20,000 nucleotides of DNA, from positions 52,962-72,961 of IMG/VR virus record IMGVR_UViG_3300043775_003095. One strand, written 5' to 3'. Shown one piece after another: positions 1,583 to 18,839 of the stretch. The stretch comes from an uncultured virus (IMG/VR IMGVR_UViG_3300043775_003095) (taxonomy: Duplodnaviria > Heunggongvirae > Uroviricota > Caudoviricetes). How positions within the stretch are numbered: the stretch's first letter is position 1; every line of letters starts with the position of its first letter. A program made the position numbers and the translations under genes. The notes under the pieces were generated by a model. It was not told the origin of the DNA. It saw only the letters and a list, made by a program, of their open reading frames with translations, and ran no database searches.

Positions 1583-2233
1583 TCAGACTCTGATCGTCTT
1601 ACATTCCCCCAGAAATTCATTCTTCGCCGATCGGAGCATGAACGCAAAATCTAGTTGAAAGATAATTCCCTCAGCCTGATGAACTTCGAGCAATTCAACA
1701 GGAATGTAATCATAATCTCGAAAAAATGTGAGATACTCAGAAATGTTCGGCGCACCTTGATTGTATTCAATCAATGGTGTTTCACAAAAAATCAATTCTG
1801 TCTTTCCCATGACTTTTTTTGCGGCAGAAAGAATATCCAATTCTGAACCTTGTGTATCAATTTTCAACAAATTGGGAACTGGAAGATCTTTATTTTCGAT
1901 CATTTTGTCTAAAGTTGTGCATGACATCTTCACTGGAGTTTTGCCATCATACCAAGTTGTTGTCTCTTTATAATATGAATCACCAGTATTGCATCCAGGA
2001 TAGAATTCAACAAACTCACGACCTTCATTGGAAAGAACATTCAAGAAGAATGAATGTCCTGTAACAATTAAATCAGACAAATAGTGAGCGTTTGCTTCAA
2101 AAAGATAAAATGATGATTCAGGCAATACCTCACGTTTCGCTTTATTACTCCATGAACCGTTGCATGCACCCACATCATAGCATATAGGAAATTGCATTCC
2201 TCTTGACTTTAAATGTTTTATAAACTCAATCAT
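1583..2233 (-). CDS. FkbM-family SAM-dependent methyltransferase
   Basis: YDVGACNG motif I, FEAN, TLD, LLKIDTQGSELDIL. Confidence 0.85.
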   Translation of the reverse strand: MIEFIKHLKSRGMQFPICYDVGACNGSWSNKAKREVLPESSFYLFEANAHYLSDLIVTGHSFFLNVLSNEGREFVEFYPGCNTGDSYYKETTTWYDGKTPVKMSCTTLDKMIENKDLPVPNLLKIDTQGSELDILSAAKKVMGKTELIFCETPLIEYNQGAPNISEYLTFFRDYDYIPVELLEVHQAEGIIFQLDFAFMLRSAKNEFLGECKTIRV

Positions 2234-3486
2234 ACAATTGCCTCGTTCATAAAGTGTTCTATAGTTTGTTCCAATTCGTTTAAATCATATTCAGGACCAA
2301 GATATATTGTTTCCAGCCCTTGTGGTTTTTTAATCAATGTTCCTTGCATTCTTTCTACGTTATAGTGATGAATGCCTAATCCGATTGAATGCGTCGCATC
2401 ATTTGCAATCGGATCAACGAAAATGTTAAATTCTGGATGCTTCTCTTTAATTATAGAAACTCCCAGAATATTTAAAGCGCAGCCACCACCAACAATCAAG
2501 TTTCTAATTTTAGAATTCTCTTTGATAAATTGTGCATGATGAAGAAAGACTTTTTCCAATGCTCTTTGAACTTCATATGCCAGATCTGCCTTTTGTTGAA
2601 ACGTTAATTCGTCAAAAAGTTCAGGATACAAATTGTAATTCAATTCTCTTCCGCAACCAAATAGATTGTTGTTTGAGTAGATGGTATCACCAACAAGAAA
2701 TGGTGGCAAGTTATTGTCTGCCTTTCCATATGCTGATAATCCCATGACCTTTCCATATCCATTCGCTCCCATCTTAAGATGGCGTGTAATCGTTTCATAC
2801 ATGTTACCAATATCCATATGAGCCGAAGCATCAAACTTATATGGAATTTTATCAAATCCAATTTTAGGATCGATCAACTCACTTATTCCACCATTCGAAC
2901 TATAAACAGGGATTGAATCTTTCACATAGACAGGACCGCACTGAGATTTCTTATAGAGATAATTTCTTCGATATCTTGAATCAATTTCTAAGATAGAAGT
3001 GTTCTCAGATCCACCAACCCCTAAATTGTTTTTAGGGTTTTGAATCACATATCCAGAACCTAGCGCATCAACAATTAAGCAAACTGCTTCGTCAAATGGA
3101 GACATATAAAATGCAGATATCGCATGACTACAATGATGAGAGTATTTGGTGAAATCATTTTTAAGATTGATTGTTCCACGACGCTCGCTTGTTTCAATTA
3201 TTTTACCAAACTCAAACATCTGAGTAATTTTATCATAGATCTGCATACAACTCTTTTCTTCTGGTAAAAGAGTATTCATGGTTTTAAATCCATGAGCAAC
3301 CAATAAATCTATTTTTTTGGTGATCTTATTGCGAATGTATTCAAATGGTTTTAAATTAAATAGCACATCATTCTTTTTACGAGTCGCTCTTTCTGCTTGC
3401 AAAAAGAAAATGAGTTTTTCATCTTCAAATAATGCTACAGAGGCATCATGTCCAAGTGTTTGAATTGCTAGTGTGTAGTAACTCAT
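2230..3486 (-). CDS. Carbamoyltransferase (CmcH/NodU/TobZ family), stand-alone N-terminal Kae1-like domain
   Basis: GHDASVA, ERATRKKND, HHCSHAISAFY.SPF, IVDALG, GKVMGLSAYG, GGCALN, DATHSIG. Confidence 0.9.
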   Translation of the reverse strand: MSYYTLAIQTLGHDASVALFEDEKLIFFLQAERATRKKNDVLFNLKPFEYIRNKITKKIDLLVAHGFKTMNTLLPEEKSCMQIYDKITQMFEFGKIIETSERRGTINLKNDFTKYSHHCSHAISAFYMSPFDEAVCLIVDALGSGYVIQNPKNNLGVGGSENTSILEIDSRYRRNYLYKKSQCGPVYVKDSIPVYSSNGGISELIDPKIGFDKIPYKFDASAHMDIGNMYETITRHLKMGANGYGKVMGLSAYGKADNNLPPFLVGDTIYSNNNLFGCGRELNYNLYPELFDELTFQQKADLAYEVQRALEKVFLHHAQFIKENSKIRNLIVGGGCALNILGVSIIKEKHPEFNIFVDPIANDATHSIGLGIHHYNVERMQGTLIKKPQGLETIYLGPEYDLNELEQTIEHFMNEAIV

Positions 3487-4043
3487 TTTGCTAGAATCGT
3501 TTTTAATTCTGGGAAGTAAATAACGTCAATATCTGAATTATGAAAAGTCTTAAGAGCATCAAATGGAGTTTCTACAATCGGCTCGCCAGCAAGATTAAAT
3601 GATGTGTTTAGAAGAAGAGGAACTCCAGTTAGATCATTGAATGCAGAGATTAAATTATAGTAATGTTCGTTTTGTTCTTTGCGAACAGTTTGAATTCTAC
3701 ACGAACCATCAACGTGAATAACTGAGGGAATCTCGTCAGTCTTATCTGCCTTCGCCGCAAAGGAATACGTCATATATGGTGCTTCTGGAATTTGAGACAT
3801 ATCAAACCAATCAGCAGCATATTCGTAAAGTATTGAAGCGGCAAGTGGGCGAAATAATTCTCTACCCTTCATTTTGTTAATGCGATCTCTGCCATCAGGA
3901 TCAACAGGAGTATAGAGCATTGATCTATTTCCTAATGCTCTTGGTCCTGCCTCTGACCTTCCTTGGAAGATTGCAACTATTTTCTTTTGCGCTAAGAGTT
4001 GAGCAACTTCAATCGGTTTAACATTAATCAACTTTCTCATCAA
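3483..4043 (-). CDS. Carbamoyltransferase (CmcH/NodU family), stand-alone C-terminal YrdC-like domain
   Basis: FQGRSEAGPRALGNRS, KGRELFRPLA, HVDGSCRIQTV, LLNTSFNLAGEPIV. Confidence 0.92.
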   Translation of the reverse strand: MMRKLINVKPIEVAQLLAQKKIVAIFQGRSEAGPRALGNRSMLYTPVDPDGRDRINKMKGRELFRPLAASILYEYAADWFDMSQIPEAPYMTYSFAAKADKTDEIPSVIHVDGSCRIQTVRKEQNEHYYNLISAFNDLTGVPLLLNTSFNLAGEPIVETPFDALKTFHNSDIDVIYFPELKTILAK

Positions 4044-17358: not shown

Positions 17359-17366
17359 AAATAAGT

Positions 17367-17441
17367 GCTGGATGAGACAACTGGGTTTGCTCGTTCTGGG
17401 CATCCGATGAAGGCGACACATTACTGCTCGCCACATCCAGC
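17367..17441 (-). ncRNA. Unassigned tRNA-sized structured RNA
   Basis: 8-bp closing stem GCTGGATG/CATCCAGC; internal GGCGA/TCGCC hairpin capped by a GUAA (GNRA) loop. Confidence 0.5.
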
Positions 17442-17459
17442 GATCCTAAATTAGTTGCT

Positions 17460-17629
17460 TCCTCTTTGCGGCGGTTTTTGTCATCCCACCACAAACACTT
17501 ATGTGGTATCCGCATCCCGACCAAAGAGGATTCTCGCATTGCCAGCGCCAGTTCGGTTAGACTGGAACCACCCTGTGGCGATCAAGCCACTTCTCATCGT
17601 CTGGGTAGACTAGCCATTGATTAGATGGC
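17460..17629 (-). ncRNA. Unassigned multi-hairpin, potentially pseudoknotted RNA (~170 nt)
   Basis: Five short hairpins plus a domain closed by TCCTCTTTG/CAAAGAGGA; lies between tRNA-Ala and tRNA-Gln. Confidence 0.6.
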
Positions 17630-17635
17630 ACGTTT

Positions 17636-17709: not shown

Positions 17710-17714
17710 AAAAA

Positions 17715-17882
17715 TGGCGTGGGCTATCGTTCGCGAATTCTCACGCTACTAGATTATTCTTATCTATGCCCCCACGCAACATAGAATGCATTCCGTTCAA
17801 TCTCATATATCGTTGGTGCTATTCAAACGGAAAAGTCTTTGCACCGACGGATGACTTACAGTGAATTCCCTGCAAGCACCAA
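17715..17882 (-). ncRNA. Unassigned structured RNA(s): two junction modules (17813-17882 and 17715-17777)
   Basis: Closing stems TTGGTGCT/AGCACCAA and GCGTGGG/CCCACGC, each enclosing two hairpins. Confidence 0.5.
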
Positions 17883-17884
17883 GA

Positions 17885-17974: not shown

Positions 17975-18048
17975 TGGTAGGACTGGAGGGTAACGCTCCC
18001 TCTTTTACGGATTAAAAGTCCGTTACATCACTTTAATGTTTCAGTCCC
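17975..18048 (-). tRNA. tRNA-Lys(TTT), atypical
   Basis: ACGGA-CTTTTAA-TCCGT; all stems pair; T-loop AGCGTTA, A8; CCA. Confidence 0.82.
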
Positions 18049-18152: not shown

Positions 18153-18228
18153 TGGTGCCCACAGAGAGATTTGAACTCCCAACCTGCGGTTTACAAAACC
18201 GCTGCACTGCCAGTTGTGCTATGTGGGC
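18153..18228 (-). tRNA. tRNA-Thr(TGT)
   Basis: GCGGT-TTTGTAA-ACCGC; CCA. Confidence 0.95.
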
Positions 18229-18235
18229 AATAATA

Positions 18236-18270
18236 TTTTTAAACAGCAAGAGCAATCGCGAAGGACGCTC
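18236..18270 (-). promoter_or_regulatory. Leader hairpin followed by boxA-like antitermination sequence
   Basis: GAGCG..TGCTC hairpin, then TGCTGTTTAAAAA (cf. rrn boxA TGCTCTTTAACAA), directly before the first tRNA. Confidence 0.55.
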
Positions 18271-18287
18271 ATCAACCTTATACATAT

Positions 18288-18347
18288 ATTCTACTGTACA
18301 AGGCTGCAAAAGACAACAACTAAAAACTTTTATAAATCAACACCTTA
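18288..18347 (-). promoter_or_regulatory. Sigma70-type promoter of the tRNA operon with upstream IHF consensus box
   Basis: TTGTCT(18316-18311)-17 bp-TAGAAT(18293-18288); AATCAACACCTTA at 18335-18347. Confidence 0.75.
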
Positions 18348-18455
18348 AAAAGTTCGCAGTTTTCGGTGCGGGAGGGGAAATTCATAAGCACCTTGGGACT
18401 CTTGTCCTACCTCAAGAAGATGAGGGCGTCGCGAATCACGCAGGAAATATTTTGT
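18347..18455 (-). ncRNA. Candidate small RNA with four-way junction and C-rich loop
   Basis: Own promoter; closing stem TTCGCG/TGCGAA, three hairpins, 3' U-tract; no credible ORF. Confidence 0.55.
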
Positions 18456-18461
18456 CAGTGT

Positions 18462-18490
18462 AGTATATAGTACAATTCAAAATAAATCAA
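18462..18490 (-). promoter_or_regulatory. Sigma70-type promoter upstream of the candidate sRNA
   Basis: TTGATT(18490-18485)-17 bp-TATACT(18467-18462). Confidence 0.6.
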
Positions 18491-18639
18491 GGATGTTGCC
18501 TATAAAATTTCACCAAATTCCAAACTTGCCAAAGAACCAAGAATGTGCACATCCAACCAATCAATGTTCCACGATTGACAAAGGCAGCAAAACTTGTTCC
18601 AGCAAGAAACACCAGATCAACAATAGGAATGAGCATCAT
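18487..18639 (-). CDS. Small membrane protein, 50 aa, two hydrophobic segments (MMLIPIVDLVFLAGTSFAAFVNRGTLIGWMCTFLVLWQVWNLVKFYRQHP)
   Basis: Translated by hand; ATGA coupling with the upstream ORF. Confidence 0.65.
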   Translation of the reverse strand: MMLIPIVDLVFLAGTSFAAFVNRGTLIGWMCTFLVLWQVWNLVKFYRQHP

Positions 18640-18839
18640 GCGTATTCAGTCACTTTGTCTAGACGCTTCATTGGAAATTGACACTTGCCTTCCTTACGCA
18701 TCTTGCTTTGATATTCTACCGTACAATCGAAACAAATATCAAGCACTTTACTATTCTTGACTGTTTGTAATTCCACTTGATACAACTTCCACTGATACTC
18801 AGTGAAGCATTGCGGTTTACTGATCGAGAGTTTTGCCAT
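18636..18839 (-). CDS. Small Cys-containing hypothetical protein
   Basis: 67 aa; C...CFDC...C, possible metal site. Confidence 0.65.
   Translation of the reverse strand: MAKLSISKPQCFTEYQWKLYQVELQTVKNSKVLDICFDCTVEYQSKMRKEGKCQFPMKRLDKVTEYA

What the first reader, a model, noticed from the sequence alone, without database searches (positions are those of the whole stretch)
18347..18490. Stand-alone candidate sRNA: four-way junction exposing an anti-Shine-Dalgarno-like loop
Seen: a TTGATT-17-TATACT promoter fires into ~110 nt with no credible ORF. It folds as closing stem TTCGCG/TGCGAA with hairpins CCTCA/TGAGG, GGAC/GTCC and GGTGC/GCACC, then a U-tract. The large third loop contains TTTCCCCTCCC, complementary to GGAGG-type RBSs. 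Known: C-rich loops are used by base-pairing sRNAs (for example the CCUCCUCCC cuckoo/CcsR RNAs) to occlude RBSs. Inference: a phage early sRNA that represses host or phage translation.
Basis: partly seen in the sequence, partly recalled or inferred. Interest (0 to 1): 0.7.

Follow-up and report, generated by a model that had tools for sequence, protein, structure and literature searches.

The report
Pseudoknotted RNA heading phage tRNA array
Just ahead of a large tRNA gene cluster, these uncultured T4-like phages carry a conserved gene for a roughly 95-base knotted RNA of a family absent from Rfam; it displays a C-rich loop that may pair with ribosome-binding sites, but its expression and job remain unproven.

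Summary
The element is real, on the minus strand (core 18441-18352). It has no Rfam match, but 53 distinct homologues turned up in uncultured phage and metagenome contigs; none was found in the cellular or cultured-phage records searched.

It is an H-type pseudoknot, not a four-way junction: a missed 5' hairpin's loop pairs with the 3' end across a 1-nt bulge (G-C 40, U-A 9, C-G 3 of 52), enclosing three covarying hairpins. Promoter and U-tract are largely conserved. A second unit (IHF-type site, promoter, boxA) drives the tRNAs, so in the main clade the RNA looks like its own transcript.

The C-rich loop keeps UCC in 20 of 20 loop-blind homologues, CCUCC in 16 of 20 and the cuckoo motif in none. 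No target was found and no RNA contig covered it.

Best reading (0.40): a stable trans-acting RNA whose knot protects both ends and presents a GGA/SD-pairing seed. Rivals: protein decoy, cis leader, ligand binder. New family, function open.

The parts
18462..18490 (-). Sigma-70-type promoter of the RNA (-35 TTGATT 18490-18485, -10 TATACT 18467-18462); start inferred near 18455
   Evidence: -10-like hexamer in 48 of 52 homologues, TTGA at -35 in 38 of 52; start site not mapped
18347..18448 (-). Structured RNA gene: short pyrimidine-rich 5' flank, pseudoknot core, U-tract
   Evidence: model R1 match 18346-18447, 122 bits, the only strong hit in the window and the only hit in G000
18426..18441 (-).
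   Evidence: 2 of 4 pairs change on both sides; 99.5% of cells paired
18430..18434 (-). 5' strand of the pseudoknot helix, in the P1 loop
   Evidence: 100% of cells paired; its last base covaries G/U/C
18354..18359 (-). 3' strand of the pseudoknot helix with a variable 1-nt bulge at 18358
   Evidence: partner C/A/G in 52 of 52; bulge A 31, C 11, U 10; top MI-APC pair
18410..18425 (-). P2 hairpin with near-invariant base pairs at the junction
   Evidence: U-A to A-U or G-C change in 13 of 52
18394..18409 (-). P3 hairpin, directly following P2, usually with an A-C mismatch at its second position
   Evidence: 4 of 6 positions change on both sides; second position unpaired in 45 of 52
18365..18392 (-). 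P4 hairpin with an 18-nt loop (18387-18370); CCUCC at 18375-18371
   Evidence: 4 of 5 pairs change on both sides; loop 9-21 nt, UCC kept in 20 of 20 loop-blind homologues
18360..18364 (-). Invariant GAAAA linker; A-minor contacts to P1 inferred from general H-type pseudoknot anatomy (recalled)
   Evidence: invariant in 52 of 52, but required by the search patterns
18347..18351 (-). U-tract 2-3 nt after the pseudoknot; probable 3' end
   Evidence: TTTT in 40 of 52; stays beside the RNA when insertions displace the IHF-type site
18335..18347 (+). IHF-consensus site (consensus recalled), belonging to the downstream tRNA promoter
   Evidence: 54-55 nt from the downstream -10 in 36 of 38 loci that have it
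18288..18316 (-). Second promoter (TTGTCT, 17 nt, TAGAAT) for the tRNA operon
   Evidence: downstream -10-like hexamer in 46 of 52
18237..18270 (-). boxB-like hairpin and boxA-like motif, an rrn-type leader of the tRNA operon
   Evidence: boxA-like motif in 38 of 49 loci, compared with the E. coli rrnH leader
18153..18228 (-). tRNA-Thr(UGU), first gene of the tRNA array

Best explanation
A small, stable, trans-acting phage RNA of about 95-105 nt. Shown: it is conserved and folds as an H-type pseudoknot (P1 plus a bulged loop-to-3'-end helix) that ties the two ends together and encloses three hairpins. Inferred: it is made from its own sigma-70-type promoter and released at the U-tract once the pseudoknot helix forms, or cut out of the tRNA precursor in divergent phages. 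Inferred: the knot resists exonucleases and holds the P4 loop out as an unpaired seed. Inferred: the seed's UCC/CCUCC pairs with GGA/GGAGG sequences, most simply Shine-Dalgarno sites, and dampens translation of a set of mRNAs, host ones more likely than phage ones.
For: Covariation: 13 of 25 pairs change on both sides, 0 of 500 shuffles reach this, slid controls pair 32-44% against 95.3%; the same holds on 23 diverse rows. The loop is unpaired in the predicted ensemble and keeps UCC near its 3' side in 20 of 20 loop-blind homologues while its 5' half and length vary (9-21 nt). The tRNA operon has its own promoter, IHF-type site and boxA, so the RNA is not needed as its leader. L506 lies mid-array, before a small ORF, so first position is not essential. 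Precedent: C-rich and UCCC hairpin loops pair with ribosome-binding sites (PMC4615179, passages; PMC3961350, abstract start in listing). None of 68 phage ORFs has GGAGG in the 20 nt before the first ATG, while 24 have a shorter SD-like word.
Against: No target found: the best phage ribosome-binding-site duplexes are barely better than background (mean -4.7 against -3.8 kcal/mol), and no consistent partner appeared in 18 loci. CCUCC is absent in 4 of 20 homologues, and only 1 of 18 parsed loops matches 6 nt of the anti-SD. The most conserved bases are in the pseudoknot and junction, not the loop, which fits protein or ligand binding better, although the search patterns enforced several of them. 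The RNA is first in the array in nearly all loci (0 of 52 with a tRNA upstream). The host is unknown, so no host mRNA search was possible.
Confidence: 0.4

Rival explanations
1. A structural decoy or scaffold RNA. The conserved three-dimensional core binds a host or phage protein (for example a defence nuclease, Rho, or a ribosomal protein that recognises the 16S 3' end); the C-rich loop is part of that surface rather than a pairing seed.
For: Near-invariant unpaired or mismatched bases cluster in the P1 loop, the P2/P3 junction and the A-rich linker. The fold is more elaborate than hairpin-only anti-SD sRNAs. The same array holds four more conserved non-tRNA elements, as T4 carries rnaC and rnaD in its tRNA cluster.
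Against: No conserved partner protein gene was identified beside it; the upstream 67-aa protein has no PHROG match. A large single-stranded loop with a conserved 3'-side UCC is what pairing RNAs show.
Confidence: 0.27
2. A cis-acting leader of the tRNA operon: an attenuator whose pseudoknot helix triggers termination at the U-tract, a put/EAR-like antiterminator, or a 5' stabilising or processing element between tandem promoters.
For: A tRNA gene lies within 500 nt downstream in 36 of 38 loci with enough sequence, and none of 52 has a tRNA upstream. L260 is 10 nt from tRNA-Pro with no second promoter. RNA-only antiterminators put and EAR exist (PMC8191782, one passage).
Against: In the main clade a separate promoter with an IHF-type site and boxA lies downstream. 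L215 has an ORF inserted after the RNA, and L506 is mid-array. No competing antiterminator fold was seen, though none was searched for systematically.
Confidence: 0.15
3. A ligand-binding or catalytic RNA (riboswitch-like aptamer or self-cleaving ribozyme) whose active site is the bulged pseudoknot helix.
For: H-type pseudoknots with a short first loop and an A-rich linker form the core of SAM-II and preQ1-I aptamers (recalled). A divergent member gave a faint hammerhead III match (12.1 bits against a cut-off of 48.5).
Against: No Rfam riboswitch or ribozyme match at E <= 10 for the window or L506. The hammerhead CUGANGA core is absent. The bulged base varies freely. No coding gene follows in cis.
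Confidence: 0.1
4. The loop pairs with host ribosomal RNA rather than mRNA and interferes with ribosomes.
For: The window loop has a 9-nt perfect complement in 23S rRNA of sampled genomes of one betaproteobacterial order; loops of L235 (12 nt) and L241 (10-12 nt) complement one 23S site, with 0-8 of 200 shuffles as good.
Against: For the window loop 31-43 of 200 shuffles do as well. Different lineages prefer different sites. Across 13 loops the best shared site is matched by 3 of 20 shuffled rRNAs. The sites were picked after the fact.
Confidence: 0.05
5. A DNA-level element (promoter or replication region), not a functional RNA.
For: Single-sequence folding is at chance level, and two promoters and an IHF-type site flank it.
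Against: Compensatory changes in all five helices, G-U wobbles that work only on the minus strand, and a crossing pair with three Watson-Crick types.
Confidence: 0.03

Closest known systems
Cuckoo / CcsR (RSs0680) sRNAs of Alphaproteobacteria (PMC4615179, passages read)
   Same: Small RNA with a C-rich, anti-SD-like motif in a hairpin loop; proposed pairing to ribosome-binding sites.
   Different: Cuckoo RNAs have 2-4 adjacent hairpins, each with CCUCCUCCC, and no multiloop. This RNA has one C-rich loop, never CCUCCUCCC (0 of 18 parsed), variable loops on the other hairpins, a pseudoknot, and occurs in phage tRNA arrays.
Phage T4 rnaC and rnaD (species 1 and 2 stable RNAs; NC_000866 annotation)
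   Same: Small non-tRNA RNAs of unknown function in the tRNA cluster of a T4-like phage.
   Different: No match of the models to the T4 region or genome. T4's RNAs are 139 and 119 nt and lie at the far end of the cluster; this one usually heads the array with its own promoter and has no CCA-type end.
UCCC / C-rich seed sRNAs such as S. aureus RNAIII and RsaA (PMC4615179 passage; PMC3961350 abstract start)
   Same: UCC(C) in an exposed loop as the likely nucleation seed.
   Different: Chromosomal Firmicute RNAs with simple hairpins and known targets; no sequence relation, and no target is known here.
manA and wcaG motifs of T4-like cyanophages (PMC2864571, passages)
   Same: Orphan structured RNAs in aquatic T4-like phages.
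   Different: Those lie in 5' UTRs of protein genes; neither model matches this element.
put RNA of HK022 and EAR element (PMC8191782 passage; PMC9378689 abstract start)
   Same: Promoter-proximal structured RNA ahead of a long transcription unit.
   Different: Here a U-tract and a second promoter with boxA follow the RNA; no sequence relation was tested beyond Rfam.

Membership tests
Cuckoo / CcsR sRNAs | CCUCCUCCC motif in each hairpin loop | tested here: not met
   0 of 18 parsed P4 loops contain it; P2 and P3 loops are variable and not C-rich
Cuckoo / CcsR sRNAs | 2-4 adjacent simple hairpins without multiloop | tested here: not met
   pseudoknot enclosing three hairpins
Cuckoo / CcsR sRNAs | Represses mRNAs by pairing at the RBS | not testable with these tools
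   host unknown; phage-side search found no target
C-rich (UCCC-type) base-pairing sRNAs, works-like class | Conserved unpaired C-rich seed in a loop | tested here: met
   UCC in 20 of 20, CCUCC in 16 of 20 loop-blind homologues; loop predicted accessible
C-rich (UCCC-type) base-pairing sRNAs, works-like class | Discrete transcript | tested here: inconclusive
   4 of 24 listed RNA runs laid, contigs only, none covers the element
Any Rfam 15 family | Covariance-model match | tested here: not met
   none over the element at gathering score or E <= 10; none for L506; 12-bit hammerhead trace for L260
Hammerhead ribozyme | CUGANGA core before stem II, GAAA after it, NUH cleavage triplet (recalled) | tested here: not met
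   GAAA follows P4, but the bases before P4 are the 3' strand of P3 and no CUGANGA occurs
T4 rnaC / rnaD | Sequence or structure homology to rnaC or rnaD | tested here: not met
   R1 with filters off gives no match over rnaC or rnaD; R2 finds none in the T4 genome
tRNA or tRNA-like RNA | Cloverleaf with acceptor stem and NCCA end | tested here: not met
   no ARAGORN or Rfam call; ends are tied by a pseudoknot and followed by a U-tract
RNA antiterminators (put, EAR) | Promotes read-through of downstream terminators in cis | not testable with these tools
   needs transcription assays; a separate boxA leader downstream argues against the need

The most novel reading that the evidence does not exclude
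A lytic phage uses a pseudoknot-locked RNA that mimics the 16S rRNA anti-Shine-Dalgarno end to blanket GGAGG ribosome-binding sites of host mRNAs, while its own weaker-SD mRNAs and its tRNA supply escape. This would be an RNA-based, sequence-general host shut-off device encoded with the tRNA array.
Probability: 0.15. Interest if true: 0.85.

Novelty: new variant of a known kind. Interest (0 to 1): 0.55.

Why it matters
It adds a well-supported, compact RNA family with a distinctive fold (a bulged H-type pseudoknot enclosing three hairpins) to the poorly understood non-tRNA RNAs in phage tRNA arrays. Its boundaries, pairings and likely seed are now defined, so structure probing and reporter tests can be designed directly. 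If the loop blocks ribosome-binding sites, it would be a rare case of a lytic-phage RNA steering translation. If it binds a protein, it would be a candidate RNA counter-defence.

Tried and rejected
Expression: 4 of the 24 listed RNA runs were laid (contigs only). None covers the element, while relatives' contigs cover neighbouring spacers. Contigs cannot show absence, so this is no evidence either way.

Cellular homologues: a pattern scan of genome contigs gave 45 hits, none with an intact P1 and none beside a tRNA. R1 over 149 genomes of one betaproteobacterial order gave 3 hits of 19-23 bits that lack the core.

Cultured phages: blastn with three members against 50,697 records found nothing over the element. 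R2 over 8 whole cultured genomes (S-PM2, KVP40, RSP15, phiM12, T5, IME-SM1, HTVC008M, T4) gave one 17.7-bit hit in RSP15 without the core.

Targets: phage ribosome-binding sites, nearby tRNAs, the G-rich 3' end of the neighbouring spacer RNA (it can pair inside that RNA and does not covary with the loop) and rRNA. None was consistent. Pairing or triplex formation of the loop with the GGUAGG junction was considered by eye and rejected, because junction variants are not mirrored in the loop.

Family ideas dropped for missing core motifs (recalled, checked by eye): HDV-like/theta, twister, pistol, RNase P, Y RNA, SAM-II.

Host: not determined. AhpD is at best 60-62% identical to proteins in that one order, and other groups were not sampled.

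Literature: ten searches returned no description of this RNA. The readable supplements of the viral candidate-RNA catalogue PMC10690425 had no match, but its alignment and model archives could not be read, so an unnamed entry there is not excluded.

Full report
Context. The window is the end of G000, a 73-kb virus record estimated 42% complete. Its gp32 is 54-57% identical to the best-ranked T4-like cyanophage proteins. It carries a permuted tmRNA elsewhere and, in the window, 16 ARAGORN tRNAs and 17 Rfam tRNA matches, all on the minus strand. The finding lies on the minus strand, between a 50-codon ORF and the first tRNA of the array, tRNA-Thr. The host is unknown. Permuted tmRNAs occur in Alpha- and Betaproteobacteria and Cyanobacteria (PMC9004378, passages); a proteobacterial host is my inference.

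Observation. The promoter, three hairpins, C-rich loop and U-tract are in the sequence as described. Alone they are weak: the fold has z = -0.96, and the promoter scan finds 15 sites against 9.1 expected. Rfam gives nothing over the element, even at E <= 10.

Homologues. Loop-based patterns found the first members. To avoid circularity I added loop-blind routes. With the upstream 67-aa protein as anchor, 20 of 24 loci carry the element; the 4 misses are weak protein matches on short contigs without tRNAs. A frame pattern without the loop gave 25 hits, 24 genuine. A pattern without the inner hairpins gave 40 hits, 24 genuine and no new ones. A junction-only pattern gave 65 hits: 19 known-type members, all with P1 and the pseudoknot although the pattern did not ask for them, one new divergent member (L506, 31 bits) and the rest chance. 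These sets overlap. In all there are 52 distinct cores plus L506; effective number about 20 at 90% identity, lowest identity to the window 55%. Most of the 52 come from the loop-biased metagenome scan. Each of 14 carrier records searched whole has one strong copy, including records of 173 and 197 kb rated complete.

Structure. A 4-bp hairpin P1 precedes it, with C-G changed to A-U in 9 and to G-C in 1 of 52 rows. Its loop pairs with the 3' end. The loop base after UUCGC and the base two before GCGA form G-C in 40, U-A in 9 and C-G in 3 of 52 rows, never a mismatch, with a free bulge between. This is the highest MI-APC pair in the alignment, and the U-A and C-G states fall in several clusters. 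The other four pseudoknot pairs never vary and were partly required by the patterns, so they add no independent support. P2, P3 and P4 all covary. Overall 13 of 25 pairs change on both sides and 95.3% of cells pair; no shuffle of 500 reaches this, and slid structures pair 32-44%. A set of 23 diverse rows, chosen from the 53, agrees. Against: L506 lacks the bulged pair and has a reduced P2. The shuffle control ignores relatedness, and R-scape was not available.

Transcription unit. A -10-like hexamer lies upstream in 48 of 52 rows, with TTGA at -35 in 38; TTTT follows within 12 nt in 40. The U-tract abuts an IHF-consensus site (consensus recalled; 8 such sites in G000 against 7.0 expected). When insertions separate them, the U-tract stays with the RNA, and the IHF-type site keeps 54-55 nt from a second -10 in 36 of 38 cases. 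A hairpin and a boxA-like motif follow in 38 of 49 loci, resembling the E. coli rrnH leader. So in the main clade the RNA has its own unit, ahead of an rrn-like tRNA operon. No hairpin terminator was called; I infer that the pseudoknot helix may serve as the terminating duplex. None of 52 loci has a tRNA upstream, and 36 of 38 with at least 500 nt downstream have one within 500 nt. Exceptions: L215 has an inserted ORF, L243 has boxA but no called tRNA, L260 abuts tRNA-Pro, and L506 lies mid-array.

The C-rich loop. Among 20 distinct loop-blind members the script parsed 18: CCUCC in 14, UCC in the last 9 nt in 18, a 6-nt anti-SD match in 1, CCUCCUCCC in 0. The two unparsed rows carry the common CCUCC loop, giving 16 and 20 of 20. 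The 5' half and the length (9-21 nt) vary. This fits a short seed that pairs with GGA, but the match to the anti-SD is limited. The phage's own ORFs show no GGAGG before the first ATG in 68 cases; start calls were mechanical and the genome is A+T-rich, so this is weak. Searches for phage, tRNA, neighbouring-RNA and rRNA partners found nothing consistent.

Expression. Not shown. Four RNA runs held contigs of relatives over tRNAs and spacers, but not over this element.

Mechanism. Shown: conservation, strand, fold, genomic position. Inferred: independent transcript, end protection by the knot, seed function. I put a trans-acting GGA/SD-pairing RNA at 0.40, a protein decoy or scaffold at 0.27, a cis leader at 0.15, a ligand binder or ribozyme at 0.10, rRNA pairing at 0.05 and a DNA element at 0.03.

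Comparison. It may work like C-rich-seed sRNAs but is not a cuckoo RNA (PMC4615179, passages). It shares its setting with T4 rnaC and rnaD without homology. PAK_P3 also makes abundant small RNAs of unknown role (PMC10914365, passages). Papers seen: passages of PMC4615179, PMC2864571, PMC10690425 (with part of its supplements), PMC9004378, PMC10914365, PMC8191782 and bioRxiv 10.64898/2026.09.22.753630; others only as search listings. Ten searches found no description, and unreadable supplements of PMC10690425 may hold an unnamed model. Earlier AI notes of this scan list other pseudoknotted RNAs in phage tRNA arrays but no sequence look-alike; I did not test them.

Verdict. A real, uncatalogued RNA family with a corrected fold; its function is plausible but unproven. 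Interest 0.55.

Noticed in passing
window 17455-17635, minus strand: About 180-nt conserved structured RNA between tRNA-Ala and tRNA-Gln; 8 distinct homologues, 13 of 40 predicted pairs with two-sided changes. A relative's RNA contig covers 17534-17633. Only a weak wcaG trace overlaps it (18.3 bits).
   Followed up: partly
window 17362-17445, minus strand: About 78-nt conserved RNA with a tRNA-like closing stem, not called as tRNA; 13 distinct homologues, 4 of 22 pairs two-sided; covered by a relative's RNA contig.
   Followed up: partly
window 17812-17884 and 17712-17800, minus strand: Two more conserved elements between tRNA-Asn and tRNA-Ala with acceptor-like closing stems and CCA-like ends (4 and 18 distinct homologues); an RNA contig with 2 differences covers 17744-17854.
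   Followed up: partly
window 18237-18347: rrn-like control region of the tRNA operon: IHF-type site at fixed spacing, promoter, boxB-like hairpin and boxA.
   Followed up: yes
window 17978-18048, minus strand: Rfam tRNA match (43.7 bits) that ARAGORN does not call; relatives have tRNA-Lys at this place.
   Followed up: no
G000:C1:45495-45851 and 46176-47695, minus strand (outside the window): Permuted two-piece tmRNA beside AhpD and an AhpC-like peroxiredoxin gene.
   Followed up: partly
window 18636-18839, minus strand: Conserved 67-aa protein with four invariant cysteines and no PHROG match, usually two ORFs upstream of the RNA.
   Followed up: partly
window 2230-4043, minus strand: Nol-like carbamoyltransferase encoded as two adjacent ORFs, near several 2OG-Fe(II) oxygenase-like genes and methyltransferases.
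   Followed up: no
L345, L347, L358 (about 2001-2100): A different conserved G/C-rich element directly upstream of the same small bacterial ORF in three genomes, hit by chance by my pattern.
   Followed up: no
L235 and L238 P4 loop: This loop variant is complementary over 12 nt to a conserved 23S rRNA site and over about 13 nt to the 3' end of the neighbouring spacer RNA; not shared by most homologues, unexplained.
   Followed up: partly
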